Shown: in pieces, positions 4,125 through 51,860 of the stretch
Layout: each line of letters starts with the position of its first letter
Numbering within the stretch: the first letter of the stretch is position 1
DNA from: Candidatus Moraniibacteriota bacterium
GTDB lineage: Bacteria > Patescibacteriota > Minisyncoccia > Moranbacterales > UBA2206
Reading direction: 5' to 3'
DNA length: 64,000 nt
Assembly: GCA_049303795.1 (NCBI GenBank)
Contig: JBAQNM010000004.1
Coordinates: forward strand, 75,690-139,689
Position numbers and translations under genes: made by a program
Notes under the pieces: generated by a model
What the model saw: only the letters and a program-made list of their open reading frames with translations
The model's database searches: none
What the model was told of the DNA's origin: nothing

Positions 4125-6371
4125 TTACCTCTCAATCCATTTACCAGAATTACATTCACAGTTCACACTTGAACAAGTCATTCCTGGACAACTACCAGCG
4201 CCTGGCTTAACTCCACAGTCTCCAGCATTACATGTTAGTGGTAAACAGACTCCAACCATCGTACCTACCGCTGGACGTGTCGCTCCGCAATTACTAGTTT
4301 GAGTAAAGGCTGTGCCCGTACAAATTGTGTTATTAGCAGGAGTCCAAGTTCTATCATTACATACATAATATTGACATTTTCTTCCGTCAGTACAACTAGA
4401 GGAATCCTCTCCAACATTTCTCCAGGATAGACTAGCTGTAGGCACATTTACATTATCATCCGTACACATAGTGCCAGCTGGAGGATTTGGCGTTCTGCAA
4501 TAACCAACTCCGGAAGGAAAATAGTATTGACATTTTCTAGCACTTGTACAATTAGAAGCCCTGCTAACCTGTATCCAATCTACGTTCGACGTTAAGCCTG
4601 CATCGTCACCTGAGCACATTACTGCTCCAGGCGGAAACAATCCAGTACAAGAATACAGCGGAGTTGGAGTAGGGGTTATGGTTGGAGTTGGCGTTGGTGT
4701 TATCGTTGGAGTCGGAGTTGGTGTAGAACAAACCTTTGTTCCAGCGCTATAAGTTCCACAATTATTAAGACAGCTGCTACCAATACAAGTATTAGCGGCA
4801 CAAACGCCATCAACAACACAAGTGCAACTACCACCACAACTAGTGCAACTAATGCCATTCCAAGTATATCCTTCGCTACAAACACGATTAGTTCCGGTAC
4901 AGGTGCCTGTTACAGTTGGATCAGCACTATTCCAAACTGAGAAATTACATGTTCTTGTTTTTGTTGAACCGGAAGTATTAAAAAATTGATGTTCAGCATC
5001 AAAAGTTCCAGTAAAAGCCCCTCCTGGATAGTTTTGAGTGTATCCAGCACTATAATTACAAACATAGCCACTACATGAAAATTCTCTACAAACAGCACTC
5101 CACATATTAGAATTTGCACCTGAAACAGCAGAATGTACTGTTTCGCCTGAATTAACTGTGTTACTATAGCCCACACAAGAAACACTAGCAGGAGGAGTAG
5201 CAGGACCAGCCCCTGAATTGACAGTCTGAGTCCCAGTGCATGTTCCAGTCACGCTTGGATTAGCACTATCCCAAACGGTATAAGTACAAGTTCTTGTTTT
5301 TGCAGAACCAGAAGTGTTATAGAATTGACTTTCCGAACCAAATGAGCCTGAAAAAGATCCTCCGGAATAATTCTGAACATACCCGGCACTATAATTACAA
5401 ACATAACTTCCACATGAAAACTCTCTGCAAACAGCGCTCCACATATTAGCATTTGCACCTGAAACAGCTGAATATACAGTGCCACCAGAGTTAACTGTAT
5501 GAGAATAACCTACACAAGAAACACCAGCTGGAGGAGTAGGTGTAACGGGACCAACTCCTGAATTGACAGTCTGCGTTCCAGTACATGTTCCAGTCAAACC
5601 AGGATTAGCGCTATCCCAAACGGTATAAGTACAAGTTCTTGTTTTTGCAGAACCAGAAGTATTATAAAATTGACTTTCTGAACCGAATGTTCCTGAAAAA
5701 GATCCTCCGGAATAATTTTGAACATACCCGGCACTATAATTACAAACATAACTTCCACATGAAAACTCTCTGCAAACAGCGCTCCACATATTAGCATTTG
5801 CACCTGAAACAGCTGAATATACAGTGCCACCAGAGCTAACTGTATGAGAATAGCCCACACAAGAAGGAATGTTGACACATACCCCACTCTGACATTGCTT
5901 ATTTGTTCCACAAGATGTTCCATTTGCAGCATTAGCCGTATATGCACAAGTATTTGATGAGCAAGTTGCGACCTTACAAACTGGAGGAGTTGCGGTGCAA
6001 TTTGAGGCCGTACAGCATCCTGTTCCAGATGCTCCTAGGAAAGTTGGTGGAGTTGCCGTAGTGGCACTTCCAAAAATTGCAGTACCATATGTTGGTGCCT
6101 GGTTGCTACGCCAACAACCGGCATCTATCCAACAAGATACGGGACTTGAAGCAGAACAAGGAATGGTTAACGACCCTCCTGTATAATATCCGGCACCAGT
6201 AGACCTGTTTGTTACTGAACAATATTTGCAACCACCGCCTGAATCACTACATGTAGTACCAGCAGAACAAGTATCTGAAGCATTAGCCATTGGGATGCCT
6301 GAGATTATTCCTGATAAAAAAAGAGCTAGGGAAAAGATAATAGAAAAGATAATTTTTTTATTCATACTCAT
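4125..6371 (-). CDS. Secreted cysteine-rich repeat protein (748 aa), cassette 1 large protein; C-terminus ...CNSGKWIER
   Basis: Sec-type signal peptide MSMNKKIIFSIIFSLALFLSGIISGIPMANA. Composition is about 10% Cys and very rich in S/T/G. Three ~115 aa tandem repeats (SCVGYSHTV...TRTCTYTVWDSANP...TGTCTGTQTVNSG). PT-rich linker TPTPTPTITPTPTPT. The internal minus ORFs at 4265-5947 are out-of-frame shadows. Confidence 0.8.
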   Translation of the reverse strand: MSMNKKIIFSIIFSLALFLSGIISGIPMANASDTCSAGTTCSDSGGGCKYCSVTNRSTGAGYYTGGSLTIPCSASSPVSCWIDAGCWRSNQAPTYGTAIFGSATTATPPTFLGASGTGCCTASNCTATPPVCKVATCSSNTCAYTANAANGTSCGTNKQCQSGVCVNIPSCVGYSHTVSSGGTVYSAVSGANANMWSAVCREFSCGSYVCNYSAGYVQNYSGGSFSGTFGSESQFYNTSGSAKTRTCTYTVWDSANPGLTGTCTGTQTVNSGVGPVTPTPPAGVSCVGYSHTVNSGGTVYSAVSGANANMWSAVCREFSCGSYVCNYSAGYVQNYSGGSFSGSFGSESQFYNTSGSAKTRTCTYTVWDSANPSVTGTCTGTQTVNSGAGPATPPASVSCVGYSNTVNSGETVHSAVSGANSNMWSAVCREFSCSGYVCNYSAGYTQNYPGGAFTGTFDAEHQFFNTSGSTKTRTCNFSVWNSADPTVTGTCTGTNRVCSEGYTWNGISCTSCGGSCTCVVDGVCAANTCIGSSCLNNCGTYSAGTKVCSTPTPTPTITPTPTPTITPTPTPLYSCTGLFPPGAVMCSGDDAGLTSNVDWIQVSRASNCTSARKCQYYFPSGVGYCRTPNPPAGTMCTDDNVNVPTASLSWRNVGEDSSSCTDGRKCQYYVCNDRTWTPANNTICTGTAFTQTSNCGATRPAVGTMVGVCLPLTCNAGDCGVKPGAGSCPGMTCSSVNCECNSGKWIER
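4857..5864. repeat. Intragenic tandem repeat, ~345 bp x 3, copies 2 and 3 near-identical at DNA level
   Basis: Repeated nucleotide blocks, e.g. ccagcactataattacaaacata...ctctgcaaacagcgctccacatattagcatttgcacctgaaacagc at ~5380-5480 and ~5725-5830. They encode the three SCVGYS...TVNSG protein repeats. Confidence 0.75.
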
Positions 6372-6372
6372 A

Positions 6373-6816
6373 TTATTTTTTATTAGCTTCGTTAATATTT
6401 ATATTTACTATCTCTTTATTTTCTTCATAATATTCAATAATTATTTCCTGACCCATTTTTAAGTCGGAAAGCTCAGCTTTTTCTCTGTTTTCACGAAGCC
6501 CTCTAGTCACAGGCGTCACTGGATCAATAAGTTTTATATCAAAAGACTCCACGCTTTTTTCTTTTTCTTCAATGCTCATATCACTTTCACTATTTTGCAA
6601 GCTTATAAAATCTATTGTGTTTTCATTCATTTTTACCAAATAGCCTGTTTTGGATCCAATAATCTTTGCCTCTTCGGAAGCTTCTTGAGTTGAACCAGTA
6701 TTTGATTTTCCTGTTTTTATTTTATTTTTATTCAAAAATGAAAAAAGAAAAAATACCATCACAAGGATAGCAATAATCCCAATTAAAAAACCCGCTACTT
6801 TTTTGTTTTTATCCAT
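6373..6816 (-). CDS. Small membrane-anchored protein (147 aa), cassette 1 partner
   Basis: N-terminal Lys-rich stretch plus one TM helix (VAGFLIGIIAILVMVFFLFSFL). C-terminal domain carries PVTPVTRGL...LSDLKMGQEIIIEY, a motif shared with the 15586-16032 protein. The stop abuts the start of the 4125-6371 gene. Confidence 0.7.
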   Translation of the reverse strand: MDKNKKVAGFLIGIIAILVMVFFLFSFLNKNKIKTGKSNTGSTQEASEEAKIIGSKTGYLVKMNENTIDFISLQNSESDMSIEEKEKSVESFDIKLIDPVTPVTRGLRENREKAELSDLKMGQEIIIEYYEENKEIVNININEANKK

Positions 6817-6893
6817 ACTTTTTTGTTTTTAAAATTTATGATATACATTAAAAAAATTAAACAAACCTTTTGTTTTTTATTTTTCTTGTGTTT

Positions 6894-6902
6894 ATTATAC
6901 CA
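6894..6902 (-). promoter_or_regulatory. Candidate extended -10 element (TGGTATAAT on minus strand) upstream of cassette 1
   Basis: Revcomp of 6894-6902 is TGGTATAAT, about 80 nt upstream of the ATG at 6816. Confidence 0.3.
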
Positions 6903-6966
6903 TATTTTTACACAAAACTAAAAGACTCATAGCACTGACCTGTGGATAACCTCCATTAATACCTTC

Positions 6967-8931
6967 TCACTTCATCTGCATTTTACGCAAAGAAGAAATT
7001 TCATCACGAATAATTGCCGCTTTTTCAAATTCTAATCCTCTAGCGGCGTCTTTCATTTCTTTTTCTCTTTGTTTAATATATCCGGCAATATCCTCTAGAG
7101 TTTCTATTTGAGAAAAATCTTGTGTGATGCGTGGATTAATTTCATGATCCACAATCGATTCAATTTTTTTCTTGATTGTTTTGGGCGTGATCTTATGTTT
7201 TTTATTATATGCCATTTGCAGAGTTCTGCGACGATTTGTTTCGGAAATAGCACGTTCCATTGATCCAGTCATTTGATCAGCATAAAGAATCACTCGCCCA
7301 CTCACATTACGCGCAGCGCGACCAATAGTTTGAATGAGTGAAGTTTCACTGCGAAGAAAGCCTTCCTTATCAGCGTCAAGAATTAAAACTAACGCGACTT
7401 CCGGAAGATCTAATCCTTCACGCAAAAGATTAACTCCAACCAAAACGTCAAATTCTCCGCGCCTTAATTTTTCCAAAATACGCACACGATCCAAGGTGTC
7501 CACTCCACTATGCAAATATTCAGCCTTCACTCCGCTTTCTTTTAGAAAATCAGATAAATCTTCTGCCATTTTCTTGGTTAGTGTTGTTACAAGCACACGA
7601 TTTTTTTTCTGAATCGTTTTCTCTATTTCCTTGGCAGCATCCTTGACTTGACCCTTGGCCGGCTTAATTATTAACTCCGGATCAATTAATCCTGTTGGTC
7701 GAATAACCTGTTCGGCCATATCTTCTTTTTTATTCTTCAATGCTTCATATTTTCCTGGCGTAGCAGAAACAAAAATAGCTTGCTTGATTTTTTTCTCAAA
7801 CTCCAAAAATTTAAGCGGACGATTATCAAAGGCACTAGGCAGACGAAAACCATTATTGATTAAATTTTCCTTACGAGATCGATCGCCATTATACATTCCA
7901 TTAAGCTGAGAAATTGTCACGTGCGATTCGTCAATCACAGTTAAAAAATCTTTAGGAAAATAATCAATCAAAGTATATGGTGCTTCGCCAGTTTTTCGTC
8001 CAGTTAAATATAGTGAATAATTCTCGATTCCATTGCAATAACCAATTTCGCGCATCATTTCAAGATCTTGTCTTGTTCTGCGCCAAATTCTTTCTGCTTC
8101 CAGAATTTTCCCTGCCTCTCGAAAAAATTTCACTTGCTGCTCCAATTCTTTTTCAATTTCTAATAGCGCTTCTCCCATGATTGCTTCCGGCACAACAAAA
8201 TGTTTCGCCGGATAGATAAGGGTTCTTTCTAAATTTGCCAGTTTTTCTCCAGTTATAAAATCATATTCAAAAATCTTCACAATTTTTCCATTTGCTATTT
8301 CTATCCGCGTAACTATCTCTCGTGCCGGTGGCATAATTTCCAGAGTCTCGCCAGTCAGACGAAATTTTCCGCGTGCCAAAATATCACTGCGCGAATATTG
8401 CATATCTACCAGTTTTCTGGCAATTTCATCACGATTAATTTGTTTTTTCAGTTCCAGTTCAAGCATTGTATCACGATAATAATCCGGCGAACCTAAACCA
8501 TAGATGCAAGAAACAGAAGCACAAATAATCACATCCTGTCGACTCATCAATCCCGCTGTTGCGGCATGACGCAAACGATCAATCTCATCATTGATCTGTG
8601 ATTCTTTTTCAATATAGGTATCCGTTGAGGCAATATAGGCTTCGGGTTGATAATAATCATAATAACTAACAAAATATTCCACCGCACTCTTGGGGAAAAA
8701 AGTACGAAACTCTTGCGCCAATTGTGCGGCTAGAGTTTTATTTGGCGCAATCACTAAAGTTGGTTTTTGCGTCTTTTCAATCACGTTTGCAATTGTGAAA
8801 GTTTTTCCCGATCCGGTCACACCTAAAAGCGTCTGGTATTTTTTTCCAGCTTTTAGCCCTCGCGTCAACTTCTTAACTGCTTGAGGCTGATCTCCAGCTA
8901 ATTTATATTTTGTATTTAATTTAAACTTCAT
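6967..8931 (-). CDS. uvrB: Excinuclease ABC subunit B (UvrB)
   Basis: MKFKLNTKYKLAGDQPQAVKKL...GVTGSGKTFTIANVIEK plus helicase motifs. Likely start is the ATG at 8931; the ORF-track extension to 8997 lacks homology. Confidence 0.9.
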   Translation of the reverse strand: MKFKLNTKYKLAGDQPQAVKKLTRGLKAGKKYQTLLGVTGSGKTFTIANVIEKTQKPTLVIAPNKTLAAQLAQEFRTFFPKSAVEYFVSYYDYYQPEAYIASTDTYIEKESQINDEIDRLRHAATAGLMSRQDVIICASVSCIYGLGSPDYYRDTMLELELKKQINRDEIARKLVDMQYSRSDILARGKFRLTGETLEIMPPAREIVTRIEIANGKIVKIFEYDFITGEKLANLERTLIYPAKHFVVPEAIMGEALLEIEKELEQQVKFFREAGKILEAERIWRRTRQDLEMMREIGYCNGIENYSLYLTGRKTGEAPYTLIDYFPKDFLTVIDESHVTISQLNGMYNGDRSRKENLINNGFRLPSAFDNRPLKFLEFEKKIKQAIFVSATPGKYEALKNKKEDMAEQVIRPTGLIDPELIIKPAKGQVKDAAKEIEKTIQKKNRVLVTTLTKKMAEDLSDFLKESGVKAEYLHSGVDTLDRVRILEKLRRGEFDVLVGVNLLREGLDLPEVALVLILDADKEGFLRSETSLIQTIGRAARNVSGRVILYADQMTGSMERAISETNRRRTLQMAYNKKHKITPKTIKKKIESIVDHEINPRITQDFSQIETLEDIAGYIKQREKEMKDAARGLEFEKAAIIRDEISSLRKMQMK

Positions 8932-8949
8932 AAGACCTTCGCTTGTGGC

Positions 8950-8996
8950 TGACCCGCCTCGACTCGCGGAGACGCTCGTCGACGCGAGGCGGGTCA
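8950..8996. other. GC-rich perfect inverted repeat (12 bp stem) in uvrB/manC intergenic region
   Basis: tgacccgcctcg (8950-8961) ... cgaggcgggtca (8985-8996) with a partly palindromic loop (cgtcgacg). Stands out in an AT-rich genome. No U-tract follows on the minus strand. Confidence 0.5.
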
Positions 8997-9053
8997 CCTT
9001 CCGGTTTAAATTTTGAATTGATTTTGAAATTATTTTCAGACATTACATAAAAT

Positions 9054-10133
9054 CTACAAATATTTGCCACCTCTCTCCTTAAGTTCCATCACCGTTTTTT
9101 TCACATCTTGTGATCGAGATTTAGGGCAAATTAAAAGCGCGTCATCAGTATCAATAATCACTAAATCATCAATACCAATTGTCGCAATTAACTTATCATC
9201 TCTTCCATAAATAATACACCCGGAAGTGTCAATATTCAATCTCTCTCCACGCACTAAATTTCTACGCTCATCTGTTTTGGTTAACATATTTTCATGAAGC
9301 GTATCCCAGGCCCCAATATCTTTCCATTCAAATTCTCCTTGAATAATCAGCACATCAGTCGGATCCATCTTTTCCGCCATGGCATAATCAACAGAAATTT
9401 TCTCCATAGAAAGATAAACTTTTTTGATCTCTGCTTCCTCATTTCCCTTCTTCATGAGAATTGCAATTTTTTTTAATTTAGAAGATAATTCTGGAGCATA
9501 TTTTTCATACGCCTCCAAAAATTTCCTCGGAGTCCACATGTAATAATTGGCATGCCAGAGATAATTACCATTTTCAATATACTGTTTCGCAGTTGCAAAA
9601 TCCGGCTTTTCTTTGTGTGATAAAAATTCATAAAATTCCACACCGTTTTTTTCAAACTTTTTAGCACCAATCTTAGTATAACCGAGAGCAGTATTGGGAT
9701 TAGTTGGATAAATTGAAATGTCCAGCATTTTGCCAGTTTCTTTAATTACGGCTTCCGCCTCTCGAATAGAGTTGATAAAGCGATCATTTCTGCCAATATA
9801 ATGATCAGAAGGAATAAAAGCCATTGGCTCATCGGCATCAAGTAGGCCCAAAAAAGTTGCGGCATAACCCATCGCTGGCCCAGTATCGCGCCTGCCTGGT
9901 TCAATAATAATATTTTTCATTGGAAAATCCGGCACCAATTCACGCACCTGTACTAATAACTCGCTAGTTGTAGCGATATATATTTTTTCGCTTGGAAAAT
10001 CCTTGAAGCGCTCGAGAGTTTCCTCGAACATCGTTTTATCAGAAATTAATTTACAAAATTGCTTTGGCTTATCAGACCTACTCATTGGCCAAAGTCGTGA
10101 ACCTCCACCACCAGCTAGAATTACAATGCGCAT
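9054..10133 (-). CDS. Mannose-1-phosphate guanylyltransferase-like nucleotidyltransferase (ManC/CpsB N-terminal domain type)
   Basis: MRIVILAGGGGSRLWPMSRSDKPKQF sugar-nucleotidyltransferase signature. No C-terminal cupin domain. Confidence 0.75.
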   Translation of the reverse strand: MRIVILAGGGGSRLWPMSRSDKPKQFCKLISDKTMFEETLERFKDFPSEKIYIATTSELLVQVRELVPDFPMKNIIIEPGRRDTGPAMGYAATFLGLLDADEPMAFIPSDHYIGRNDRFINSIREAEAVIKETGKMLDISIYPTNPNTALGYTKIGAKKFEKNGVEFYEFLSHKEKPDFATAKQYIENGNYLWHANYYMWTPRKFLEAYEKYAPELSSKLKKIAILMKKGNEEAEIKKVYLSMEKISVDYAMAEKMDPTDVLIIQGEFEWKDIGAWDTLHENMLTKTDERRNLVRGERLNIDTSGCIIYGRDDKLIATIGIDDLVIIDTDDALLICPKSRSQDVKKTVMELKERGGKYL

Positions 10134-10231
10134 ATGGTTTTTAATTTAAAAATTTTAAACAAACCCCCTATTCCATTATTAAACCACATTGCCAAAAAAA
10201 AGAATAGTAGCTAATTTTATATTCTTAAATT

Positions 10232-10247
10232 TGGCTTTTAAAAGCCA
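10232..10247. promoter_or_regulatory. 16 bp perfect palindrome TGGCTTTTAAAAGCCA between divergent genes
   Basis: Seen directly in the divergent promoter region between the manC-like gene (minus) and secG (plus). Confidence 0.3.
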
Positions 10248-10276
10248 TAAATTACTAAAACAAGCCTCATTCTTGC

Positions 10277-10305
10277 TTGACTAAAGAATTTCCTCATGCT
10301 AATCT
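10277..10305 (+). promoter_or_regulatory. Candidate sigma70-type promoter for secG (TTGACT - 17 nt - TAATCT)
   Basis: TTGACT at 10277-10282, a 17 nt spacer, and TAATCT at 10300-10305, about 28 nt upstream of the secG ATG. Confidence 0.35.
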
Positions 10306-10332
10306 TTCAAGGTAACTAAAAGACAATAAATT

Positions 10333-10563
10333 ATGCTAAAAATAGTAAATGTTTTTGAAATTGTAATCGCTATCTTGCTCGCCATATCAATTCTTCTTCA
10401 AAACCGAGGAGCCGGACTATCTGGTACCTTTGGTGGTGGCTTCGAAGGTTATCACACTAAACGTGGTTTTGAAAAGTTTCTAGTCTATTTTTCTATTGTG
10501 CTATCTGCGGCATTTATTATTTTGGCCATAATTAATTTGATTTTGACTAATAAATTAAATTAA
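10333..10563 (+). CDS. secG: Preprotein translocase subunit SecG
   Basis: 76 aa, two TM helices, central LLQNRGAGLSGTFGGG signature. Confidence 0.8.
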   Translation: MLKIVNVFEIVIAILLAISILLQNRGAGLSGTFGGGFEGYHTKRGFEKFLVYFSIVLSAAFIILAIINLILTNKLN

Positions 10564-10615
10564 ACCTATTAGTAAACTTTCTGAAAAATGTAAGTGGTTT
10601 TCATCAAAATACTGG

Positions 10616-12274
10616 ATGAGATTGTATCGAGTTACAAGCCTCAAAGAAAAATTCCTGTTCTGTTTTTTGATACTTTTTTTTATTTCATCTCTTAGCTACT
10701 GGCTAGTCTCTTCTTATTACTCCAAAACTGAATCAATCGCTAATTTCGGAGGTGAATATATCGAAGGAAATATTGGCCAACCAGCACATATTAATCCCGT
10801 TCTATCGCTTTCTAATGATGTTGACTCCGATCTCAGCCTTATTATCTATAATGGGCTTCTTAAATATAACGATAAAGGTGCATTAATTAATGACTTAACA
10901 GAAAGTTATGAGATTAATGAGGATAAAACTGTCTACACTTTTCATTTGAAAAAAAATGTAACTTGGCATGATGGAGAGAAATTAACTGCTGATGATGTAT
11001 TTTTCACTTTCAATTTAATCTCCGATCCGGCTTATAAAAGCCCCTTGCGATCAATTTGGCAAGGTGTCAGCGCTAATATTGTTGATGAATACACAATTTC
11101 TTTCAAAACCAGTCCATATGTTGGATTCCTTAATAATGCTACTTTTGGAATCATGCCCAAGCATATTTGGGAACCTGTTAAGCCAGAAAATTTTGCCTTA
11201 ACAGAACTGAACCTGGAACCAATTGGAACGGGCCCTTTTAAATATACCTCCTTTCAAAAAGATTCTAAAGGTAATATTTTGTCATATAAGCTAGTTGCCA
11301 ATCCTAATTATTTTTATGGCAAGCCTTATCTTTCAAAAATTACCTTCAATTTCTACACTGAAGAAAGTGCTCTTTTGGATGCTTATAACCGCAAAGAAAT
11401 AATGGGCATTAATAGTGTGTCCTCTCAAAACATCTCTACAATAAAAAATCAAAAAAACACCTTTGTGCACGAATTAAATATTCCCAGATATTTTGCTGTT
11501 TTTATTAATCAAATAAAAAGTGTCCCACTGGCAGATGATAAGGTGCGAGAAGCTCTAAATTATGCTACTAACCGAGAAGAATTAATTAATCTTTTATTAG
11601 ATGGAAAGGGTACACCGGTCTATTCACCAATCCTTCCTGGCATGCTCGGTTATAGCCCTGATTTAGGTAAGGTCAATTATGATTCAGAAAAAGCCAAAAA
11701 ACTTCTAGATGAGGCTGGTTGGAAAACATCCGGAGATGGTATCAGAGTTAAAGATGATAAATTACTGGAAATAAATCTAGTTACCACAAATTGGGATGAA
11801 TTTAACAAGCTAGCTGAAATTCTAAAAGCACAATGGGAAAAAGTTGGCGTAAAAGTCAATATCAATAGCCCAACTGTTTCTGATGTTCAACAGAACTATA
11901 TTCGCCCAAGAGAATATGAAGCGCTTCTTTTTGGACAAAATATTGGTGCTGATCCAGACCCCTATTCTTTTTGGCATTTTAGCCAGGGAAAAGATCCTGG
12001 GCTCAACCTAGCTATTTTTGGTGATGATACAAGTGATAAACTAATTGAAGCTGGCCGCATGGAATTCGATCCTGAAAAAAGGGCTCAGAATTATGTGGAT
12101 TTTCAGAATATCTTAATTAAAGAAATACCAGCAATTTTTCTTTGCAGTCCAAAATATATTTATCCAGTTAATAAATCCATACAAGGCATGACCACGGAAA
12201 ATATTGCTTCTCCTGCCAAACGTTTTTCTAATATTGAAAAATGGTATATCAAAACCAAAAGAATTTGGAAATGA
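10616..12274 (+). CDS. ABC transporter substrate-binding protein, family 5 (peptide/nickel/oligosaccharide type), orphan
   Basis: N-terminal anchor helix, then SBP_bac_5-like region LIIYNGLLKYNDKGALINDLTESYEINEDKTVYTFHLKKNVTWHDGEKLTADDV. No permease or ATPase genes adjacent. Confidence 0.75.
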   Translation: MRLYRVTSLKEKFLFCFLILFFISSLSYWLVSSYYSKTESIANFGGEYIEGNIGQPAHINPVLSLSNDVDSDLSLIIYNGLLKYNDKGALINDLTESYEINEDKTVYTFHLKKNVTWHDGEKLTADDVFFTFNLISDPAYKSPLRSIWQGVSANIVDEYTISFKTSPYVGFLNNATFGIMPKHIWEPVKPENFALTELNLEPIGTGPFKYTSFQKDSKGNILSYKLVANPNYFYGKPYLSKITFNFYTEESALLDAYNRKEIMGINSVSSQNISTIKNQKNTFVHELNIPRYFAVFINQIKSVPLADDKVREALNYATNREELINLLLDGKGTPVYSPILPGMLGYSPDLGKVNYDSEKAKKLLDEAGWKTSGDGIRVKDDKLLEINLVTTNWDEFNKLAEILKAQWEKVGVKVNINSPTVSDVQQNYIRPREYEALLFGQNIGADPDPYSFWHFSQGKDPGLNLAIFGDDTSDKLIEAGRMEFDPEKRAQNYVDFQNILIKEIPAIFLCSPKYIYPVNKSIQGMTTENIASPAKRFSNIEKWYIKTKRIWK

Positions 12275-12359
12275 TACCAATCTAGAGCTTCTCTTTTTTG
12301 CACATATCTTTAATAAAAAATATTGTTTCTCTAATAATTTATATTAAAAAAATAAACAT

Positions 12360-12971
12360 ATGCAAAATAACTTTGATTTTGTACCTAAACATTATGCTGC
12401 ACGCGAACAAGCAGAGATAAAAGATGTGCTTATGAATCCAAATGGCACTGGACCAGCGATTCATTACTATATGATCCGTGGCGGAGTTGATCAAAAAAAT
12501 ATTACCGTTTGGGAGCCAGGTACTATTTCGGGAGAATATATAAAAACCTATGGACACTATCACGTCGGTGAATTAGAAGAAGATTATGAAATTCTTTTTG
12601 GGGAAGGCGTCGCACTTTTGCAAAAATTATCTATAGATAAAAACGGAAATATGCTTGCTAATTCAGTAGAAGAATTCCGAGCAATAATAGTTAAGCCAGG
12701 AGATAAAATTCATATGGCGCCTAGCTATGGCCACTTATTAGCCAACACTGGTTCAACTTATTTTGTCACCGTCGATAACAGTCCAGTTAATTTTGAAGAA
12801 GGAAAAAATTCAGCTGATTTTCCCGGACATGCCGATTATCAACTTGTCAAAGAAATGCATGGATTTGCTTATTATGTAGTTGAACATAAAGGAAAACCAG
12901 TGCTCAAAAAAAATCCAAACTATAAAGAAATACTAAAAGAAGATTTGGGTGGACTGCCAGTTATTGAATAA
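12360..12971 (+). CDS. Cupin-type glucose-6-phosphate isomerase (cPGI)
   Basis: TVWEPGTISGEYIKTYGHYHVGELEEDYEILFGEGVALLQ and GDKIHMAPSYGHLLANTG parallel the two metal-binding cupin motifs of archaeal-type PGI (TKGHFH...E... and PP.W.H...N). Confidence 0.65.
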   Translation: MQNNFDFVPKHYAAREQAEIKDVLMNPNGTGPAIHYYMIRGGVDQKNITVWEPGTISGEYIKTYGHYHVGELEEDYEILFGEGVALLQKLSIDKNGNMLANSVEEFRAIIVKPGDKIHMAPSYGHLLANTGSTYFVTVDNSPVNFEEGKNSADFPGHADYQLVKEMHGFAYYVVEHKGKPVLKKNPNYKEILKEDLGGLPVIE

Positions 12972-12986
12972 TGAAAAAATAAAAAA

Positions 12987-13361
12987 ATGTCTATTATCGA
13001 GAGTGAAAAAATATGTGAACGTCCCTGGGGAAAATTTGAAATACTCGTAACTGCCGAAAAATACCAAGTTAAAAGATTAACTATTTATCCCAATGGGATA
13101 TTAAGCCTTCAGTCACACAAACATCGATCAGAACATTGGATTATAGTGTGTGGCACGGCAAAAGTAACTAATGGTGAAAATGTAATTATTTTCAATCAAA
13201 ACGAAAGTACTTTCATTCCATTAGGAAGTATTCACCGATTAGAAAATCCGGGAAAACAAAATCTAGAGGTAATCGAAGTGCAAACCGGTGACTATTTGGG
13301 GGAGGATGACATTATACGCTATGAAGATATTTATAATCGAAAAACTGACAATTCTTTATAG
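12987..13361 (+). CDS. Stand-alone cupin domain of type II mannose-6-phosphate isomerase
   Basis: RPWGKFEIL...VKRLTIYPNGILSLQSHKHRSEHWIIVCGTAKV matches the C-terminal cupin of bifunctional ManC/PMI enzymes. Confidence 0.65.
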   Translation: MSIIESEKICERPWGKFEILVTAEKYQVKRLTIYPNGILSLQSHKHRSEHWIIVCGTAKVTNGENVIIFNQNESTFIPLGSIHRLENPGKQNLEVIEVQTGDYLGEDDIIRYEDIYNRKTDNSL

Positions 13362-13420
13362 ACTAGTCCAATGGAAGATTTGAAGAAAAAATTAGCCTAG
13401 CTATTTAAACTAAAAAATCC

Positions 13421-13456
13421 AAAAAAACAGTCCCGAGTAATTGGGACTGTTTTTTA
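13421..13456. terminator. Bidirectional Rho-independent terminator
   Basis: A-tract, then stem acagtccc (13427-13434) paired with gggactgt (13443-13450), then a T-tract. Lies between convergent genes. Confidence 0.6.
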
Positions 13457-13496
13457 ATTTATCATATAAGCAATTGCGATTTTTTAAAAAGCCATG

Positions 13497-14010
13497 TTAT
13501 CTTTCTTCCCAATTTCCAGGACTACAAACATTCGTTCTACAACTCGAACTACACGTTTCTGGACAACCACCATTATTTACCCCATTGTCACAATCCTCAA
13601 ATAAACCCTTTATTCCGTCACCACAAACATCACAGTTATTAAACGTGCAACCTGCGCTACAAGTTTTTGGACAAACTCCATTGTTAGCACCTTTATCACA
13701 TAATTCACCTAATTCTAAAATTCCATTACCACACACGGAACAAGTGTTGCTCGTGCAGCTTGTGCTACAAATCTTTGGACAAACTCCATTGTTAGCTCCG
13801 TTATCACAAGTTTCAACTCCTTCCAAAACTCCATTACCACAAGTGGCTCCACCACAAGTGTTACTTGTACAAGTTGCGCTACAAGTCTTTGGACAAACTC
13901 CATTGTTGGCACCATCGTCACAAATTTCAGAGCCCTCTATAATCCCATTGCCACAAGTAACGCTACTGCAATCTTCTGTTCCAGCGGTATATCCACATCC
14001 ATTCCAACAA
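13497..14010. repeat. Four tandem ~37 aa Cys-rich repeats (CGNG...CDxGxNNGxCPxxCS)
   Basis: Visible in the translation of the 3' end of the 13497-15605 gene. The Pro-rich + strand ORF 13441-14037 is the antisense frame of these repeats. Confidence 0.7.
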
Positions 14011-15605
14011 TCAAAACCAAGGCAAGCATTGCAATAAAAAGGAGTGCAACCACCACAACCATCACAACTTCTAACAGTAACAGCCCCACTGCAAGAACCG
14101 ATTACTGATGGATTAAGAGTATTCCAAACTTTAAAATTACAACTTCTCGTTTGATCATCTCCGGAATTATTATAATATAATGCTGTAGCGTCAAGACTCT
14201 GTTCTATTGGATATGTTAGACTGTTATAAAAATAAGCTGGTGAATCATATGTACATACTCGATCAGTACATTCAAACTTATTGCAGGTATATTTTATTCT
14301 GTTAGCATTCCAAGCAGACACCGAGGCATCAGCAATTTCTCCTGAGTTAACAATACTATCATTACTATCATAAGCACAAGTCGGGCCATCACCTATTTGA
14401 GGAGGCTCGTCTCCGCTTCTGACTGAAACTCCACCGCCACATGTGGCTGTTTTATTATTGAAAGTATTTTTAACAGTAATTGTACAACTTCTTGTTTTTA
14501 AACTGCCTGAGGTATTATAGTAATAAAATGTAGCGCTATTATCTGCAAGAGGTAATGTATATACGGGAGAATTGTAATCATAGTTATCTTCATAATAACA
14601 CGTACCTGATGTGCAATTGAAATCAGAGCAAGTCCAACTAACTTCTTGGGCATTACTGGTGGTCAAATGTGTTTGAGCTGTCTTTCCTGAATCAATAGTT
14701 CCATCAGTTGAATAAACACAACTTGGACCATCAGGTGGAGGCGGTGTCACTACTGCGCCACTATGAACATTCACATTTCCATTGCAAGTTCTCTTCACGC
14801 TACTATTGGCACTACTCCAAACTGTGAATTTACAATTTCTTGATAAATCTTTGCCTGAATCATTATTAAATATAATCGAATTAGTTATAGTTCCATCAGA
14901 TGGTATATCAGTATTACCAGAATATGAATAGCTTTCATCATCATTGCAGGTTCCACCTGAGCACCTAAAGTTTGAGCAAACCCAACTAACCTTATCAGCG
15001 TGTGTGGCTGAAAACATTACGGTAATTGCAGCTCCCGAATTAGTGTCATATGAATAATCATTACAACTTGGCTCTGGGAAAGAATCTGCACACTTACCTT
15101 CTGCACAAACTTTTCCCGAACCACAAGCATGAATATCCTCACTTAATTTTTTATCTGCTGAGCAATAATACTCTTTTACTGTATTAGTATCAACACAATT
15201 ATCCCAAGCAGAGTCTTTATACGGATTAAATTCTACATATCCCTGTGTTGAATAATCCTTGCTATCAGAATCTACACAAATCATATCACATCTACCTTCA
15301 CTTGCTTTACAATAAGCATCCTCATAAAAACTGGTACAACTGTTAACGCTCTGATCAAGAGCACCTCCGGTACAAAAATATTCTGTCAAGTTGTTTCCAA
15401 CACAATTATCCCAAGCATCGTCAGCCTTAGTAGGCGTTCCATTGAAATCAGTATTACCTTGAATGAATGGCTTATTTCCACCATCAGAGTCAGTGCAAAC
15501 TGCTTTTGCTGATCCAACAAGAAAAAAAACAGATACGATCAGGACAAGGAAACTAGCAATTAATTTTTTATTCATATTCATAAATTTATTTTTTATCAAG
15601 AACAA
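13497..15605 (-). CDS. Secreted cysteine-rich repeat protein (702 aa), cassette 2 large protein; C-terminus ...CSPGNWEER
   Basis: Signal peptide (MNKKLIASFLVLIVSVFFLVGSAKA). Repeats of the C.FTVW.sanp..gtC.G type are shared with the 748 aa protein. The C-terminal region has four CGNG..E.GE.CD.GANNGVCPKTCS repeats resembling the Myxococcus cysteine-rich repeat. Confidence 0.8.
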   Translation of the reverse strand: MFLIKNKFMNMNKKLIASFLVLIVSVFFLVGSAKAVCTDSDGGNKPFIQGNTDFNGTPTKADDAWDNCVGNNLTEYFCTGGALDQSVNSCTSFYEDAYCKASEGRCDMICVDSDSKDYSTQGYVEFNPYKDSAWDNCVDTNTVKEYYCSADKKLSEDIHACGSGKVCAEGKCADSFPEPSCNDYSYDTNSGAAITVMFSATHADKVSWVCSNFRCSGGTCNDDESYSYSGNTDIPSDGTITNSIIFNNDSGKDLSRNCKFTVWSSANSSVKRTCNGNVNVHSGAVVTPPPPDGPSCVYSTDGTIDSGKTAQTHLTTSNAQEVSWTCSDFNCTSGTCYYEDNYDYNSPVYTLPLADNSATFYYYNTSGSLKTRSCTITVKNTFNNKTATCGGGVSVRSGDEPPQIGDGPTCAYDSNDSIVNSGEIADASVSAWNANRIKYTCNKFECTDRVCTYDSPAYFYNSLTYPIEQSLDATALYYNNSGDDQTRSCNFKVWNTLNPSVIGSCSGAVTVRSCDGCGGCTPFYCNACLGFDCWNGCGYTAGTEDCSSVTCGNGIIEGSEICDDGANNGVCPKTCSATCTSNTCGGATCGNGVLEGVETCDNGANNGVCPKICSTSCTSNTCSVCGNGILELGELCDKGANNGVCPKTCSAGCTFNNCDVCGDGIKGLFEDCDNGVNNGGCPETCSSSCRTNVCSPGNWEER

Positions 15606-16032
15606 TGACTATACTTAACGCGTTTTTGGTTTGTTTATCATATTCAATCATAATTGTTTGCCCAATCTTCAAATCAGAAAGTCTGCCATCTTTTTTATCA
15701 GCATCCAAGCCAACAGTAACAGGGGTTACTGGTGAAACAAGACTTATATTATAAGATTCTATTTCTCTTGATATTTTCATCTCATCTCCAATCTTAATCT
15801 CTTTCGGTGGCCCAAGAACATCTATGGATTGCTCATGCATTTTTCTTAACTCACCCGTAATTATTTCTGTTCCAACGTCTACTGTTTTCTCTTGAATAAT
15901 TTTTTGATTTTCTTCTGTATATTTTTTTGAAACCAAAAAAGAAGCAAAATAAATAATTGTAATAAATATAATTATTCCAATCAAGATAACTAAGCTTTTT
16001 TTGTTTCTTTCTGTTTTTTTCTGTTTTTTCAT
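15586..16032 (-). CDS. Small membrane-anchored protein (148 aa), cassette 2 partner
   Basis: Lys-rich N-terminus plus TM helix. Motif LVSPVTPVTVGL...LSDLKIGQTIMIEY is shared with the 6373-6816 protein. Its 3' end overlaps the start of the large gene. Confidence 0.7.
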   Translation of the reverse strand: MKKQKKTERNKKSLVILIGIIIFITIIYFASFLVSKKYTEENQKIIQEKTVDVGTEIITGELRKMHEQSIDVLGPPKEIKIGDEMKISREIESYNISLVSPVTPVTVGLDADKKDGRLSDLKIGQTIMIEYDKQTKNALSIVIVLDKK

Positions 16033-16106
16033 TTTTTTGTTTTAAATTTTATTACTTAGAACGCAAAAGAAAAAATTAAGTTTTCTCTTTCATGTTTATA
16101 TTAATA

Positions 16107-16112
16107 TTATAC
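16107..16112 (-). promoter_or_regulatory. Candidate -10 (TATAAT, minus strand) upstream of cassette 2
   Basis: Revcomp of 16104-16115 is GGGGTATAATAT, about 75 nt upstream of the ATG at 16032. Confidence 0.3.
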
Positions 16113-16168
16113 CCCATTTCAAACAAATCAACAATACTAGCTTTAAAAAACTGTGGATAAATATATTT

Positions 16169-16212
16169 AAAAAAAACAGAAGTATGCTAATCATTCATAC
16201 TTCTGTTTTGCG
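16169..16212. terminator. Bidirectional Rho-independent terminator after cassette 3 large gene
   Basis: A-tract, then 10 bp stem cagaagtatg (16177-16186) paired with catacttctg (16196-16205), then a T-tract. Confidence 0.65.
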
Positions 16213-16240
16213 TTTTATTTAATTTCAAACCGAAAGAAAA

Positions 16241-17473
16241 TCATCTCTCCTCCCAATTTCCAGAATTGCAAGAACCACAATGTGTCGTCTGAGCAGCACA
16301 ATTAGCAATTTCGGCAGGCGAGCACACACCTGCTCCGCAAGTTTTAATACATCCTTTTGGTTTGTCTCCACAACCACACACTGCATCTACACAAGTTGCT
16401 GGCATGCATGGAGGTGGTGTTACGGTTGGTGTTGGAGTTGCAGATGGAGAAACAATTATTGTTCGACTATCACAATTTGACCAAACATTATTACTGTCTT
16501 TAACTTTGAAACCAACCACCCAGGTTCCTGGAGAAAAAATAATACTACTAGTGTTAGGAACGCTAGTGCCAATATATAAAGCAGTTCCGGTACAACTCCC
16601 ATTTTTATACCATCTATAGCCTGTAATAGTATCTCCGGAATCAACATCATTTCCTGTTCCGGTAAAATTAAAAGAAAGGGTGCTAATTGTTTTTGGATTG
16701 TCCAAGGAATCTGGAATTGTTATCAACGCTGTAGGTGCAGTATTGCTGCTACTTACACTAGTCACCTCACTCATCATATTCGAACAAGCAGCTCCATATG
16801 ATGCTGGGTCATTCAAATTAGTATTAGTCGAATCAATGCAAAACCACCCAACTGGGCATTTCGTCTCGCTAACAGGAGAAAGTAAACCACTAGGCTCAAT
16901 TCCACTTTGCCATACAGACCACCAAATTACACCATCAGAAGAAATATGCTTTTCACAAGAATCATAAATTGTTTCACGAGCACCATCAGAATTGACTCCG
17001 GTAGCTTTTCCACCTTGATTTGGATCATTACCGAAATCATTATCAGTTCCTGTCACACATAATCCTGAGCTATTCATATATTGATAAGCTTCAGGGCAAC
17101 AATCACTAAAAGTCCCTTCCTCACCTAAGCAATCTGAAACACTGAGACATTTATTCTCTCCATTACAAACTTTTCCAGATGGACAATCAGAGTCAACACA
17201 ACATTCAACGGTTGCTTGATATCCCTTATTGTTATACCAACTTCCAGCACAAGAAGAGCTCCATGCCACAGAATCACAAGTTGCTCCTGGAGCTGTGCAC
17301 CAGGCATCGCATTTTTGAATTTTTTTATTAACACAGGCAGACTCACTACTAACATATGAATCATCACCATCCCCTTGTATCAACGGATTTGCCAATACAT
17401 AATCAATACTAATGAAAAAAACAAAGGACAAAAGCGAAAAAATAACACCTGCAATTTTCATTTTTATTTTCAT
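16241..17473 (-). CDS. Secreted cysteine-rich protein (410 aa), cassette 3 large protein; C-terminus ...CNSGNWEER
   Basis: Signal peptide MKIKMKIAGVIFSLLSFVFFISIDYVLA. Cys-rich N-terminal half, an Ig-like middle region and a PT linker. The C-terminal Cys cluster ends in SGNWEER. Confidence 0.75.
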   Translation of the reverse strand: MKIKMKIAGVIFSLLSFVFFISIDYVLANPLIQGDGDDSYVSSESACVNKKIQKCDAWCTAPGATCDSVAWSSSCAGSWYNNKGYQATVECCVDSDCPSGKVCNGENKCLSVSDCLGEEGTFSDCCPEAYQYMNSSGLCVTGTDNDFGNDPNQGGKATGVNSDGARETIYDSCEKHISSDGVIWWSVWQSGIEPSGLLSPVSETKCPVGWFCIDSTNTNLNDPASYGAACSNMMSEVTSVSSSNTAPTALITIPDSLDNPKTISTLSFNFTGTGNDVDSGDTITGYRWYKNGSCTGTALYIGTSVPNTSSIIFSPGTWVVGFKVKDSNNVWSNCDSRTIIVSPSATPTPTVTPPPCMPATCVDAVCGCGDKPKGCIKTCGAGVCSPAEIANCAAQTTHCGSCNSGNWEER

Positions 17474-17573
17474 TTTATTTTTTTATCAACTATTTGTATT
17501 TATATTGTTAAATTTTTACAAAATATTTGATAGTTTTTATTTATTTTAAATTGACTAACAAAAAAATTATTTA

Positions 17574-18005
17574 TTATTCTTGTCCTACAATCACTTCCAA
17601 AACTTCATTATTTTGTTTATTGTAAGTTATTTTAACATCTTTATCCATAGAAAGCTGAAATAATCCGATTTCTATTTTTTGAACATCTTCATTATTTTCT
17701 ACTTCCTGAAAAAAATTAGCTCCTTCGGAGGGTACAATCAAATCTAATTCCTGACCATCAACGCTAACCACCTTAAGTATAGAGATGTCAATTGAAACGA
17801 TTTTGGCTAAAATATTTTCCATTTCAATGCTGGACTGATTATTCTCTTCTTGATTTGATTGAAATTGAGTTTGAATAGAATTATTTTTTGAATCACCAAA
17901 TAAATGTTGCCTTTTACTAATAACCAATACCGCTAAGATAAAGGCCAAAACACCCACTATTATGATTAAACTTGCTCGAGTATTTTTTTTATTTTTTTGT
18001 TTCAT
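17574..18005 (-). CDS. Small membrane-anchored protein (143 aa), cassette 3 partner
   Basis: Same architecture as 6373-6816 and 15586-16032 (Lys-rich N-terminus, one TM, ~100 aa C-terminal domain) and the same position upstream of a Cys-rich gene. Sequence is more diverged. Confidence 0.55.
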   Translation of the reverse strand: MKQKNKKNTRASLIIIVGVLAFILAVLVISKRQHLFGDSKNNSIQTQFQSNQEENNQSSIEMENILAKIVSIDISILKVVSVDGQELDLIVPSEGANFFQEVENNEDVQKIEIGLFQLSMDKDVKITYNKQNNEVLEVIVGQE

Positions 18006-26836: not shown

Positions 26837-26886
26837 TTTTCCAGACAAATCTTATCGTGTTGTTATTTGTTTATGACACTACGAAT

Positions 26887-27310: not shown

Positions 27311-27321
27311 GAAAATTAATC

Positions 27322-37402: not shown

Positions 37403-37412
37403 AATTGCCTCC

Positions 37413-38018: not shown

Positions 38019-38051
38019 GTTCTGTCTCCCTGTGTGATATGTTTACATTGT

Positions 38052-39338: not shown

Positions 39339-39344
39339 CCTCCA

Positions 39345-42432: not shown

Positions 42433-42511
42433 GTCAGTTCATCCTTTCTCTGTAAAAATGGGCAGGCTTTTTGGGCCTGCCCGGTTTTGGTTGATTTGTT
42501 GAAGCCGGTTG

Positions 42512-51832: not shown

Positions 51833-51860
51833 AGTTATTTTTTAAATATAAAAACTAGAT

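What the first reader, a model, noticed from the sequence alone, without database searches (positions are those of the whole stretch)
4125..18005. Three copies of a two-gene cassette: small membrane-anchored protein plus huge Cys-rich secreted protein
Within 14 kb the same arrangement occurs three times on the minus strand: 6816-6373 then 6371-4125; 16032-15586 then 15605-13497; 18005-17574 then 17473-16241. Each pair has a ~145 aa protein with a Lys-rich N-terminus, one TM helix and a ~100 aa C-terminal domain. Immediately downstream (abutting or overlapping in two cases) is a Sec-secreted 410-748 aa protein that is ~8-10% cysteine. The large proteins share repeat types (C.[FY]TVW.SANP...TC.G; PT linkers). 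The third copy appears co-transcribed with trpS and rnj. The architecture suggests a diversifying family of disulfide-knotted surface or secreted proteins, each paired with a dedicated membrane partner (anchor, chaperone or export factor). In a putative episymbiont this could be a host-attachment system. I do not recognise a described family with this pairing.
Basis: partly seen in the sequence, partly recalled or inferred. Interest (0 to 1): 0.85.

Follow-up and report, generated by a model that had tools for sequence, protein, structure and literature searches.

The report
Paired membrane anchor and cysteine-rich surface protein
A tiny uncultured bacterium (Moraniibacteriota, CPR) carries three copies of a gene pair, a small membrane-anchored barrel protein followed by a large disulfide-rich secreted protein with a conserved end tag; every relative examined keeps the pair, so it is probably an undescribed cell-surface display module of untested function.

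Summary
Three minus-strand pairs (S1/L1, S2/L2, S3/L3) each encode a 143-148 aa Cys-free signal-anchored protein followed by a Sec-secreted protein with 7.3-8.8% Cys. S1/L1 and S2/L2 are clear paralogues. S3/L3 is a distant subtype.

New points:
- The small proteins are membrane-anchored single OB-fold domains, remotely homologous to Pfam DUF5666.
- L1 and L2 each hold three 115-aa, six-Cys, Ig-like repeats.
- All three large proteins end in G-[NK]-W-x-E-R-stop. Relatives carry the same kind of tail ([SG]-x-W-x-E, then 1-5 residues).
- The small-protein family is very rare: 17 clusters among 1.84 billion representatives.
- In all 12 S1-type gene contexts examined, the gene lies directly next to a large secreted protein. 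Eleven were verified Cys-rich, and the two genes usually abut.
- Natural S1+S3 fusions exist.
- S and L diverge much faster than the uvr genes beside them.

No curated family, solved relative or sorting signal matches, and nothing in the literature searched. Large Cys-rich extracellular CPR proteins were already reported in 2016.

Best reading: a lineage-restricted surface module in which S tethers or assists L. This is inferred, not shown. More distant pairs lack the tail, so the pairing does not depend on it. Interest is moderate.

The parts
6373..6816 (-). S1: 147 aa signal-anchored small protein. It has a short Lys-rich cytoplasmic N-terminus, a TM segment at residues 10-28, a ~25 aa disordered linker and a DUF5666-like OB-fold ectodomain.
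4125..6371 (-). L1: 748 aa Sec-secreted protein with 62 Cys. Order of modules: N-terminal Cys-rich region, three Ig-like repeats, a Cys knot, a PT linker, two ~45 aa Cys repeats, and a C-terminal Cys-rich region with the tail.
   Evidence: Start codon lies 1 nt after the S1 stop.
4872..5867 (-). Three tandem ~115 aa repeats of L1 (residues 169-500). Each has six invariant Cys and a predicted Ig/PKD-like beta-sandwich fold.
4128..4145 (-). C-terminal tail of L1: G-K-W-I-E-R, then stop.
2883..4007 (-). Membrane-anchored GILT/thioredoxin-like thiol oxidoreductase directly downstream of L1. It is a possible disulfide-forming helper, and its link to the module is tentative.
   Evidence: No terminator-like hairpin with a T-run between L1 and this gene. 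Orthologue at 35% identity, E=1e-60, annotated PF03227 GILT, lies near the cassette in L010, L011 and L014. Only a weak Thioredoxin_2 hit here.
15586..16032 (-). S2: 148 aa paralogue of S1 (39% identity).
13497..15581 (-). L2: secreted protein with 62 Cys, about 692-694 aa from the likely ATG start. Order of modules: two CxDSDGG...EYYC modules, three Ig-like repeats, a Cys knot, four CGNG..E.CD.GANNG.CP repeats and the tail.
   Evidence: The N-terminal modules match repeat proteins P0003 and P0004.
14061..15071 (-). Three ~115 aa six-Cys Ig-like repeats of L2 (residues 179-515 in the 702-aa numbering).
13500..13517 (-). C-terminal tail of L2: G-N-W-E-E-R, then stop.
13422..13455 (-). Intrinsic terminator after L2. 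The hairpin is bidirectional and is shared with the convergent cupin gene.
   Evidence: Fold z-score -4.2.
17574..18005 (-). S3: 143 aa signal-anchored small protein of a second DUF5666-like subtype.
   Evidence: hhalign 84.9% to DUF5666 repeats over 69 columns. Fused to an S1-type domain in P0007 and P0010.
16241..17473 (-). L3: 410 aa secreted protein with 30 Cys. Order of modules: N-terminal Cys module, PKD-like module (residues 239-347, window 16433-16759), PT linker, Cys-rich end and the tail.
   Evidence: Modules are shared with large proteins in L012, L015, L014, L010 and L009.
16244..16261 (-). C-terminal tail of L3: G-N-W-E-E-R, then stop.
16165..16209 (-). Terminator-like hairpin (14 bp stem, 9 nt loop) followed by a T-run, after L3.
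   Evidence: The pattern scan missed it because the loop is longer than 8 nt.

Best explanation
This is a lineage-restricted (Candidatus Moraniibacteriota, CPR) two-gene cell-envelope module.

The components
- Gene 1 (S) makes a Cys-free type-II membrane protein. It has about 10 basic cytoplasmic residues, one TM helix, a ~25-residue flexible linker and a single extracytoplasmic OB-fold domain remotely related to DUF5666.
- Gene 2 (L) is usually translationally coupled to gene 1. It makes a Sec-exported mosaic protein built from disulfide-stapled Ig-like or PKD-like sandwiches, small Cys knots and Pro/Thr linkers. It ends in a short conserved tail, [SG]-x-W-x-E plus 1-5 residues.

The proposed mechanism
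Both proteins are made in fixed proportion. L is oxidatively folded outside the membrane, possibly with the neighbouring GILT-like oxidoreductase. The S ectodomain then holds L at the cell surface as a non-covalent membrane tether. This would give a rapidly diversifying display or adhesion protein, plausibly for contact with a host cell.

Shown versus inferred
- Shown: the gene architecture, the predicted folds and topology from sequence, the tail motif, the conserved adjacency and fusions, and the fast co-divergence.
- Inferred: the physical S-L interaction, the surface location, the role of the tail, and adhesion.
For: Architecture and topology
-.

The S fold
- AF2 model with mean pLDDT 78, 85-93 over most of the ectodomain.
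- hhalign 96.8% (S1 type) and 84.9% (S3 type) to DUF5666 repeats taken from proteins that pass Pfam's cut-off.

The L fold
- The repeat is an Ig/PKD-like sandwich.
- Cys counts are even: 62, 62 and 30.

Rarity plus constant adjacency
- The S1/S2 profile finds only 17 clusters among 1.84 billion representatives.
- All 12 S1-type gene contexts examined, including the two in the window, lie directly next to a large secreted protein.
- Eleven of these were verified Cys-rich from sequence. For P0012 no DNA was available.
- Gaps range from -11 to +4 nt in most pairs.
- S3-type genes show the same pairing in L009, L015 and L018-L020.
- L015 has three consecutive S-L pairs with three different S types.

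Other support
- Natural S1+S3 fusion proteins sit beside L genes.
- Co-divergence between L008 and L009: UvrA 96%, UvrC 74%, S 47%, L 37% identity.
- The tail is found on 12 of 12 tail-bearing ORFs that are all L proteins, out of 183 ORFs. In L015 and L017 it follows a Pro-rich linker.
- Terminators follow L2 and L3.
Against: - There is no experimental or structural evidence of an S-L complex.
- All loci come from one narrow lineage, so repeated adjacency is partly inherited synteny and the Fisher test is not phylogenetically independent.
- In L010 and L014 the S fusion gene lies downstream, not upstream, of the L genes.
- L008 has a second L with no S of its own.
- More distant S3/S4-type pairs (L018-L020) have large partners without the tail, so the tail cannot be the general S-binding element.
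- The tail is uniform within a genome whatever the S type. This fits one shared reader better than a cognate S for each L.
- S3 and L3 are 100 nt apart.
- The OB-fold hits are generic.
Confidence: 0.45

Rival explanations
1. S is a dedicated extracytoplasmic holdase or folding/export chaperone for its Cys-rich neighbour. It is membrane-tethered, like PrsA or CcmE in topology, and acts transiently while up to 31 disulfides form. L is then released or attached by other means, for example through the W-x-E tail.
For: - Tight translational coupling and one S per L.
- The S-L pairing persists where the tail is absent.
- The tail is uniform within a genome, which suggests a separate reader for it.
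- A GILT-like oxidoreductase is a conserved neighbour.
Against: - No chaperone-family signature was found.
- Chaperones are usually conserved, whereas S diverges as fast as L (47% against 37% identity).
- L008's second large protein has no S of its own.
Confidence: 0.2
2. The two genes are neighbours by descent but work independently. S is a general small envelope protein of the DUF5666-like class, and L is an independent secreted adhesin. The cassette appearance would then reflect duplication of a chromosomal segment.
For: - All examples come from one lineage and share synteny with uvr/lexA genes.
- DUF5666 proteins elsewhere (P0014, P0019, P0020) are stand-alone tandem-repeat proteins.
- Gene order is not fixed (L010, L014, L018).
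Against: - Adjacency survives 37-47% sequence identity, domain shuffling of L, three unlinked positions in this genome, and different S types (S0, S1, S3, S4).
- Stop and start codons abut or overlap in most pairs.
- No S-family gene was found away from an L gene.
Confidence: 0.15
3. L is a secreted toxin or bacteriocin-like effector, and S is its membrane-located immunity or protection protein.
For: - The small plus large gene pairs are multi-copy and fast-evolving with mosaic domains, which resembles polymorphic toxin loci.
Against: - No toxin, peptidase or nuclease domain appears in any L.
- The variable parts are Ig/PKD-like modules, while the C-terminus is the conserved part. This is the opposite of polymorphic toxins.
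- The small gene is upstream and its domain faces outwards.
- Relatives were not found in viral contigs.
Confidence: 0.04

Closest known systems
Large cysteine-rich extracellular proteins of CPR bacteria (Peribacteria; Anantharaman et al. 2016, PMC4736985)
   Same: Both are Sec-signal, Cys-rich (about 7%) large proteins without functional annotation. Both are found in a small-genome CPR bacterium, clustered and variable, with weak likeness to Myxococcus Cys-rich repeats and a proposed role in attachment.
   Different: The Peribacteria proteins are much larger (about 1,655 aa on average). That paper does not report a paired small membrane protein or a conserved C-terminal tail. No sequence relationship was tested here.
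Pfam DUF5666 (PF18914) and CusF-like periplasmic OB-fold domains
   Same: The S ectodomain aligns by profile to DUF5666 repeats, sharing the 'LSDLK-G-Q-x-V-x-V-x-Y ... A-x-x-I-x-I' hairpin. The predicted fold is an OB barrel.
   Different: S1-S3 do not reach the Pfam model at all. They are single-domain and membrane-anchored, not tandem-repeat secreted proteins or lipoproteins. They lack the His, Cys and Trp metal ligands of CusF. DUF5666 itself has no known function.
CcmE (membrane-anchored OB-fold haem chaperone)
   Different: S1 has no His, and S2 and S3 have one each, so the H-x-x-x-Y haem-binding motif (recalled from memory) is not conserved. There is no ccm gene context.
Cohesin-dockerin and WxL/Csc-type non-covalent surface display of Gram-positive bacteria
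   Same: These are functional analogies only. In both, a secreted multi-module protein carries a C-terminal element and is held at the surface by a dedicated partner or by the wall, and the genes form multi-copy clusters (from general knowledge).
   Different: The tail here is about 6-10 residues, not a 60-160 aa dockerin or WxL domain. No cohesin, dockerin or WxL Pfam hit was found. The interaction has not been shown.
Sortase or exosortase C-terminal sorting signals (LPXTG, PEP-CTERM and others)
   Same: In both cases a conserved C-terminal motif sits on Sec-exported surface proteins. In some L proteins it is preceded by a Pro-rich spacer.
   Different: There is no LPXTG-like or PEP motif at the end, no C-terminal TM helix and no basic tail. 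There is no NCBIfam sorting-domain hit. No sortase was found among the window ORFs scanned against Pfam; short ORFs and the window ends were not scanned.

Membership tests
Pfam DUF5666 (PF18914), small proteins | Match to the Pfam HMM at or above its gathering score (27 bits). | tested here: not met
   No DUF5666 hit for S1, S2 or S3, even at E<=1.
Pfam DUF5666 (PF18914), small proteins | Remote homology to bona fide DUF5666 repeats. | tested here: met
   The S1/S2 profile hits P0014 (E=1e-9) and P0020 (6.6e-4), both of which pass the Pfam cut-off. hhalign gives 96.8% for A4 and 84.9% for A9.
OB-fold, small proteins | A small beta-barrel resembling solved OB folds. | tested here: met
CcmE haem chaperone | A conserved haem-binding His in an H-x-x-x-Y motif (motif recalled from memory). 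| tested here: not met
   S1 has no His; S2 and S3 have one each. No CcmE hit in Pfam or NCBIfam.
CusF-type metallochaperone | Metal ligands: His, two Met and a Trp (from memory). | tested here: not met
   No Trp or Cys and 0-1 His in S1-S3. CusF_Ec hits appear only in the distant DUF5666 proteins.
Sortase substrates (LPXTG class) | An LPXTG-like motif followed by a C-terminal hydrophobic helix and a basic tail. | tested here: not met
   No such motif and no hydrophobic run in the last 60 residues of L1-L3.
PEP-CTERM, PGF-CTERM and other curated sorting domains | Match to an NCBIfam sorting-domain model. | tested here: not met
   NCBIfam gives no such hit at E<=1 for L1-L3.
Myxococcus Cys-rich repeat (TIGR04201 and related models) | Model score at or above the cut-off. 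| tested here: not met
   Only L3 gives a hit, at 16 bits against a cut-off of 25. L2's four CGNG..E.CD.G repeats give no hit. The resemblance is by eye only.
PKD domain (PF00801/PF18911), L3 | Pfam match, or homology to proteins that match. | tested here: inconclusive
   L3 itself has no Pfam hit at E<=1. Its residues 239-347 align to the PKD-annotated partners in L014, L010, L015 and L009 at E 1e-8 to 1e-10.
Polymorphic toxin with immunity gene | A variable C-terminal toxin domain and a downstream cytoplasmic immunity gene. | tested here: not met
   The C-terminus is the conserved part and no toxin domain was found. The small gene is upstream and its domain is extracytoplasmic.
The S-L module itself (proposed here) | A small signal-anchored DUF5666-like gene directly adjacent to a large secreted Cys-rich gene. 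| tested here: met
   Three of three pairs in the window, and all related loci examined. P0012's partner was seen only as a 539-aa gene call, without sequence.
The S-L module itself (proposed here) | Physical S-L interaction and surface location. | not testable with these tools
No proteomic data are available here.

The most novel reading that the evidence does not exclude
The [SG]-x-W-x-E C-terminal tail is a new kind of short, TM-less surface-retention signal in CPR bacteria. It would be read by the membrane-anchored DUF5666-like OB-fold proteins encoded beside each cargo, or by one shared receptor in each genome. Together they would form a sortase-independent, non-covalent display system for rapidly diversifying disulfide-rich adhesins that an episymbiont uses to attach to its host.
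Probability: 0.15. Interest if true: 0.8.

Novelty: new variant of a known kind. Interest (0 to 1): 0.5.

Why it matters
CPR/Patescibacteria are thought to live attached to other cells, but the molecules that make contact are largely unknown. Most of their envelope proteins have no annotation.

This module supplies three things:
- a concrete, recognisable gene pair;
- a first hint at a role for a DUF5666-like domain;
- a short C-terminal motif that can be searched for across CPR genomes.

If S tethers L, this would be a simple surface-display mechanism in bacteria with minimal genomes, and it would point to candidate host-attachment proteins. If not, it is still a well-defined, fast-evolving, lineage-specific family suitable for metaproteomics and structure prediction.

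Tried and rejected
Searches that found nothing
- Pfam and NCBIfam on all six proteins: nothing significant.
- Word-indexed homologue searches. S2 found only itself. L2 found itself plus two CxDSDGG-repeat proteins that match only its N-terminal modules and sit in unrelated contexts. The 12-repeat alignment found nothing, not even the query proteins, so that negative says little.
- PDB sequence search for the S profile and for L3: only noise.
- Metagenome scan with the Ig-like repeat: 193 pattern matches, no true relative.
- Viral-contig scans with S and with the L repeat: none.

Jobs that could not run
- The afdb50 fold library was unavailable.

Tests that were uninformative
- Strain-level diversification: the same-species contigs are 100% identical.
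- hhalign of A4 against A9: A4 contains the fusion proteins, so the match is an artefact.

Readings rejected
- Programmed readthrough or a hidden C-terminal TM segment after the tail. The stop codons differ (TAA, TAA, TGA) and the downstream sequence is not conserved.
- Recent gene conversion as the cause of tail identity. L2 and L3 differ at synonymous sites within the tail codons.
- Anti-sigma factor. There are only about 10 cytoplasmic residues.
- Attachment to peptidoglycan by an L,D-transpeptidase, as for Lpp. The terminal residue is not conserved.


Full report
**Source and setting**

The window comes from a metagenome-assembled Candidatus Moraniibacteriota genome (Parcubacteria group, Patescibacteria/CPR). 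S2 and L2 are identical to NCBI proteins WAV31_04140 and WAV31_04135. The region is about 35% GC and is otherwise filled with housekeeping genes: uvrB, manC, an SBP_bac_5 protein, GPI, a cupin, trpS and rnj.

**1. The observation**

All six ORFs are present as described.

The small proteins (S1 6373-6816, S2 15586-16032, S3 17574-18005, all on the minus strand):
- are 143-148 aa and contain no Cys;
- have a basic N-terminus of about 10 residues;
- have one strongly hydrophobic 19-residue segment;
- carry a charged C-terminal part of about 100 aa.

The large proteins (L1 4125-6371, L2 13497-15605, L3 16241-17473):
- have one N-terminal signal-peptide-like segment;
- contain 62, 62 and 30 Cys (8.3, 8.8 and 7.3%), all even numbers;
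- are the only ORFs in the window longer than 150 aa with more than 5% Cys.

How closely the pairs are related:
- S1/S2 (E=6e-20) and L1/L2 (E=1e-52) are clear paralogues.
- S3 and L3 give no BLAST hit to the others at 1e-3.
- S3 aligns to the S1/S2 profile only over its last 26 residues (probability 68%).
- L3 aligns to L2 only over its last ~40 residues.

Details of gene organisation:
- The S2/L2 overlap is an artefact of a TTG start. An ATG lies 4 nt after the S2 stop.
- The L1 start is 1 nt after the S1 stop.
- S3 and L3 are separated by 100 nt.
- Terminator hairpins followed by T-runs come after L2 (13455-13422) and L3 (about 16209-16165). None follows L1.
- A hairpin at 19129-19089 separates rnj from trpS.

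No other ORF in the window does. L2 and L3 differ at synonymous positions within these codons, and the sequence after the stop is not conserved. The peptide itself is therefore what is conserved.

**2. What the parts are**

*Small proteins.* Pfam and NCBIfam give nothing significant.

An exhaustive HMMER search with the S1/S2 profile found only 17 hits among 1.84 billion cluster representatives:
- Ten are full-length proteins with a leading S1-type domain: S2 itself (P0001), seven 146-163 aa proteins of the same architecture, and two fusions.
- The two fusions are 236 and 245 aa (P0007, P0010). In them the S1-type domain is followed by an S3-type domain.
- Three are short fragments of 67-82 aa (P0015, P0016, P0018).
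- A few are weak hits to tandem-repeat proteins. Two of these (P0014, P0020) pass Pfam's cut-off for DUF5666.

Profile-profile comparison links both subtypes to DUF5666 repeats: 96.8% for the S1 type and 84.9% for the S3 type.

So S is a signal-anchored, single-domain, DUF5666-like OB fold. It has no His/Cys/Trp ligand set.

The other modules are mosaic:
- L2 starts with two CxDSDGG...EYYC modules that are also found as pure repeat proteins elsewhere (P0003, P0004).
- L2 ends with four CGNG..E.CD.GANNG repeats.
- L1 and L3 have PT linkers.
- L3 has a PKD-like module and an N-terminal Cys module. Both recur in large proteins paired with S1-type genes in L012 and L015, and in PKD-annotated partners in L009, L010 and L014.

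L3 is therefore a member of the same mosaic superfamily even though it lacks the 115-aa repeat.

**3.

Genomic contexts were recovered for every S1-type cluster that could be looked up.

| Locus (S protein) | Arrangement |
|---|---|
| L008 (P0005) | S, then a 668-aa L one nt later with three repeats and tail ..DCTWREVTP. A second L follows with tail ..DCTWRESAP. |
| L009 (P0006) | S, then an 818-aa L with tail ..DCNWKEVQP. Then two S3-type genes, then a PKD-repeat secreted protein. |
| L010/L011 (P0007, S1+S3 fusion) | The fusion gene lies next to two Cys-rich L genes with tail ..SSWQEVLP. A different small anchored gene ('S0') precedes them. |
| L012 (P0008) | S, then L. |
| L013 (P0009) | L, S, then an L with the repeats. 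|
| L014 (P0010, fusion) | A PKD-type L with tail ..SSWQEVLP, then the fusion gene. |
| L015 (P0011) | Three consecutive pairs: S0-L, S1-L and S3-L. The tail is ..GSWGEIKP. |
| L016 (P0013) | S, then L. |
| L017 (P0017) | S, then a 431-aa L with tail ..GGWKEVTPS. |
| P0012 contig (no DNA available) | S, then a 539-aa gene overlapping it by 4 nt. |

S3-type searches added L018-L020. In these, S3-type and another small anchored type ('S4') again flank large secreted proteins with 4.5-5.5% Cys, but these proteins lack the tail.

Across the window and 11 loci, 12 of 183 ORFs of at least 100 aa carry W-x-E within the last nine residues. All 12 are the large secreted partners (Fisher p about 1e-13). 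These loci are not phylogenetically independent.

Between L008 and L009, UvrA is 96% identical and UvrC 74%, while S is 47% and L 37%. S and L therefore diverge together, much faster than their neighbours.

**4. Mechanism**

*Shown from sequence and models:*
- an N-in signal-anchored OB-fold protein and a Sec-exported, disulfide-rich, Ig-like mosaic protein;
- genes that usually abut or overlap, which implies coupled expression;
- conserved pairing, natural S-S fusions, and parallel rapid divergence;
- a short C-terminal motif confined to the L proteins. In some cases it follows a Pro-rich spacer, so it behaves as a linear motif rather than as part of a fold.

*Inferred:* S and L interact outside the membrane. 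I favour S as a non-covalent membrane tether that displays L. An adhesin-like role fits the Ig/PKD modules and the episymbiotic lifestyle attributed to CPR bacteria. A dedicated holdase or folding helper is the main rival.

The role of the tail is open:
- It is uniform within a genome whatever the S type.
- It is absent from the more distant pairs.
- It is therefore unlikely to be the general S-binding element, and a separate factor may read it.

The GILT-like membrane thiol oxidoreductase directly downstream of L1 (2883-4007) has an orthologue near the cassette in three related loci. It may supply disulfide chemistry, but this link is tentative.

**5. Comparison with known systems**

Large Cys-rich extracellular proteins in CPR bacteria, with attachment proposed as their role, were described for Peribacteria (PMC4736985). 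That paper mentions neither a small partner nor a tail.

DUF5666 is uncharacterised, and the literature hits are only gene-list mentions.

The following are analogies only. Their defining features were tested and not met: CcmE, CusF, sortase signals, PEP-CTERM-type signals, polymorphic toxins, and cohesin-dockerin or WxL display. See the membership table.

No relatives were found in viral contigs.

**6. Verdict**

It is unproven for function.

This is a new variant of a known kind: a CPR Cys-rich surface protein, now with a conserved DUF5666-like anchored partner and an undescribed C-terminal tail. It appears restricted to a narrow lineage.

Interest is moderate (0.5). The module is well defined and testable, and it bears on how CPR cells contact hosts. 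No mechanism has been demonstrated, and the family is small.

Noticed in passing
window 35795-43978: This block is 43-45% GC against about 35% elsewhere. It encodes a DUF6638 protein, an AAA ATPase and three ORFs with no Pfam hit. Two ORFs that share a 44%-identical ~145 aa domain flank it (34880-35578 and 44301-45350). It may be a horizontally acquired island.
   Followed up: no
window 50840-57020 and 57102-61595: Three paralogous ~330 aa ORFs with no Pfam hit (50840-51832, 51861-52853, 56025-57020; 57-77% identical) surround a 1021 aa ORF that also has no hit. Next to them is a 1497 aa SNF2-helicase plus methyltransferase fusion.
   Followed up: no
window 2883-4007 (-): A membrane-anchored GILT/thioredoxin-like protein with a cytoplasmic Cys cluster (CAHDEKKCCCEKY) and a CPYG motif. 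It lies directly downstream of L1 with no clear terminator between them. An orthologue (E=1e-60) lies near the cassette in L010, L011 and L014.
   Followed up: partly
window 6967-8997; L008, L009, L010, L014, L017: The cassette always sits among nucleotide-excision-repair or SOS genes: uvrB here, and uvrA-uvrC or lexA in relatives. This is probably conserved synteny rather than a functional link.
   Followed up: partly
L015 4636-5250 and 9981-10427: Two small anchored proteins with different ectodomains (S0 type and S3 type) share an almost identical first ~45 residues (TM helix plus linker). This suggests exchange or conversion of the anchor module within one genome.
   Followed up: no
L004 (same species), end of contig; window about 5720: An independent assembly of the same organism breaks 651 nt into L1, inside its near-identical repeats. 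All same-species contigs are otherwise 100% identical to the window.
   Followed up: yes
window 26390-27312 (+): smpB is followed by a tmRNA gene (Rfam RF00023, 154 bits). This is ordinary.
   Followed up: yes
L013 1572-2063: On this contig the copy of the small-protein gene P0009 has an in-frame stop three codons before its end (..NNK*YE*). It is a minor variant or a sequencing error.
   Followed up: no
window 13441-14037 (+), 5594-5947 (-), 4910-5185 (-): Long ORFs in other frames or on the opposite strand lie inside L1 and L2. They mirror the repeat structure of those genes and are almost certainly not genes.
   Followed up: partly
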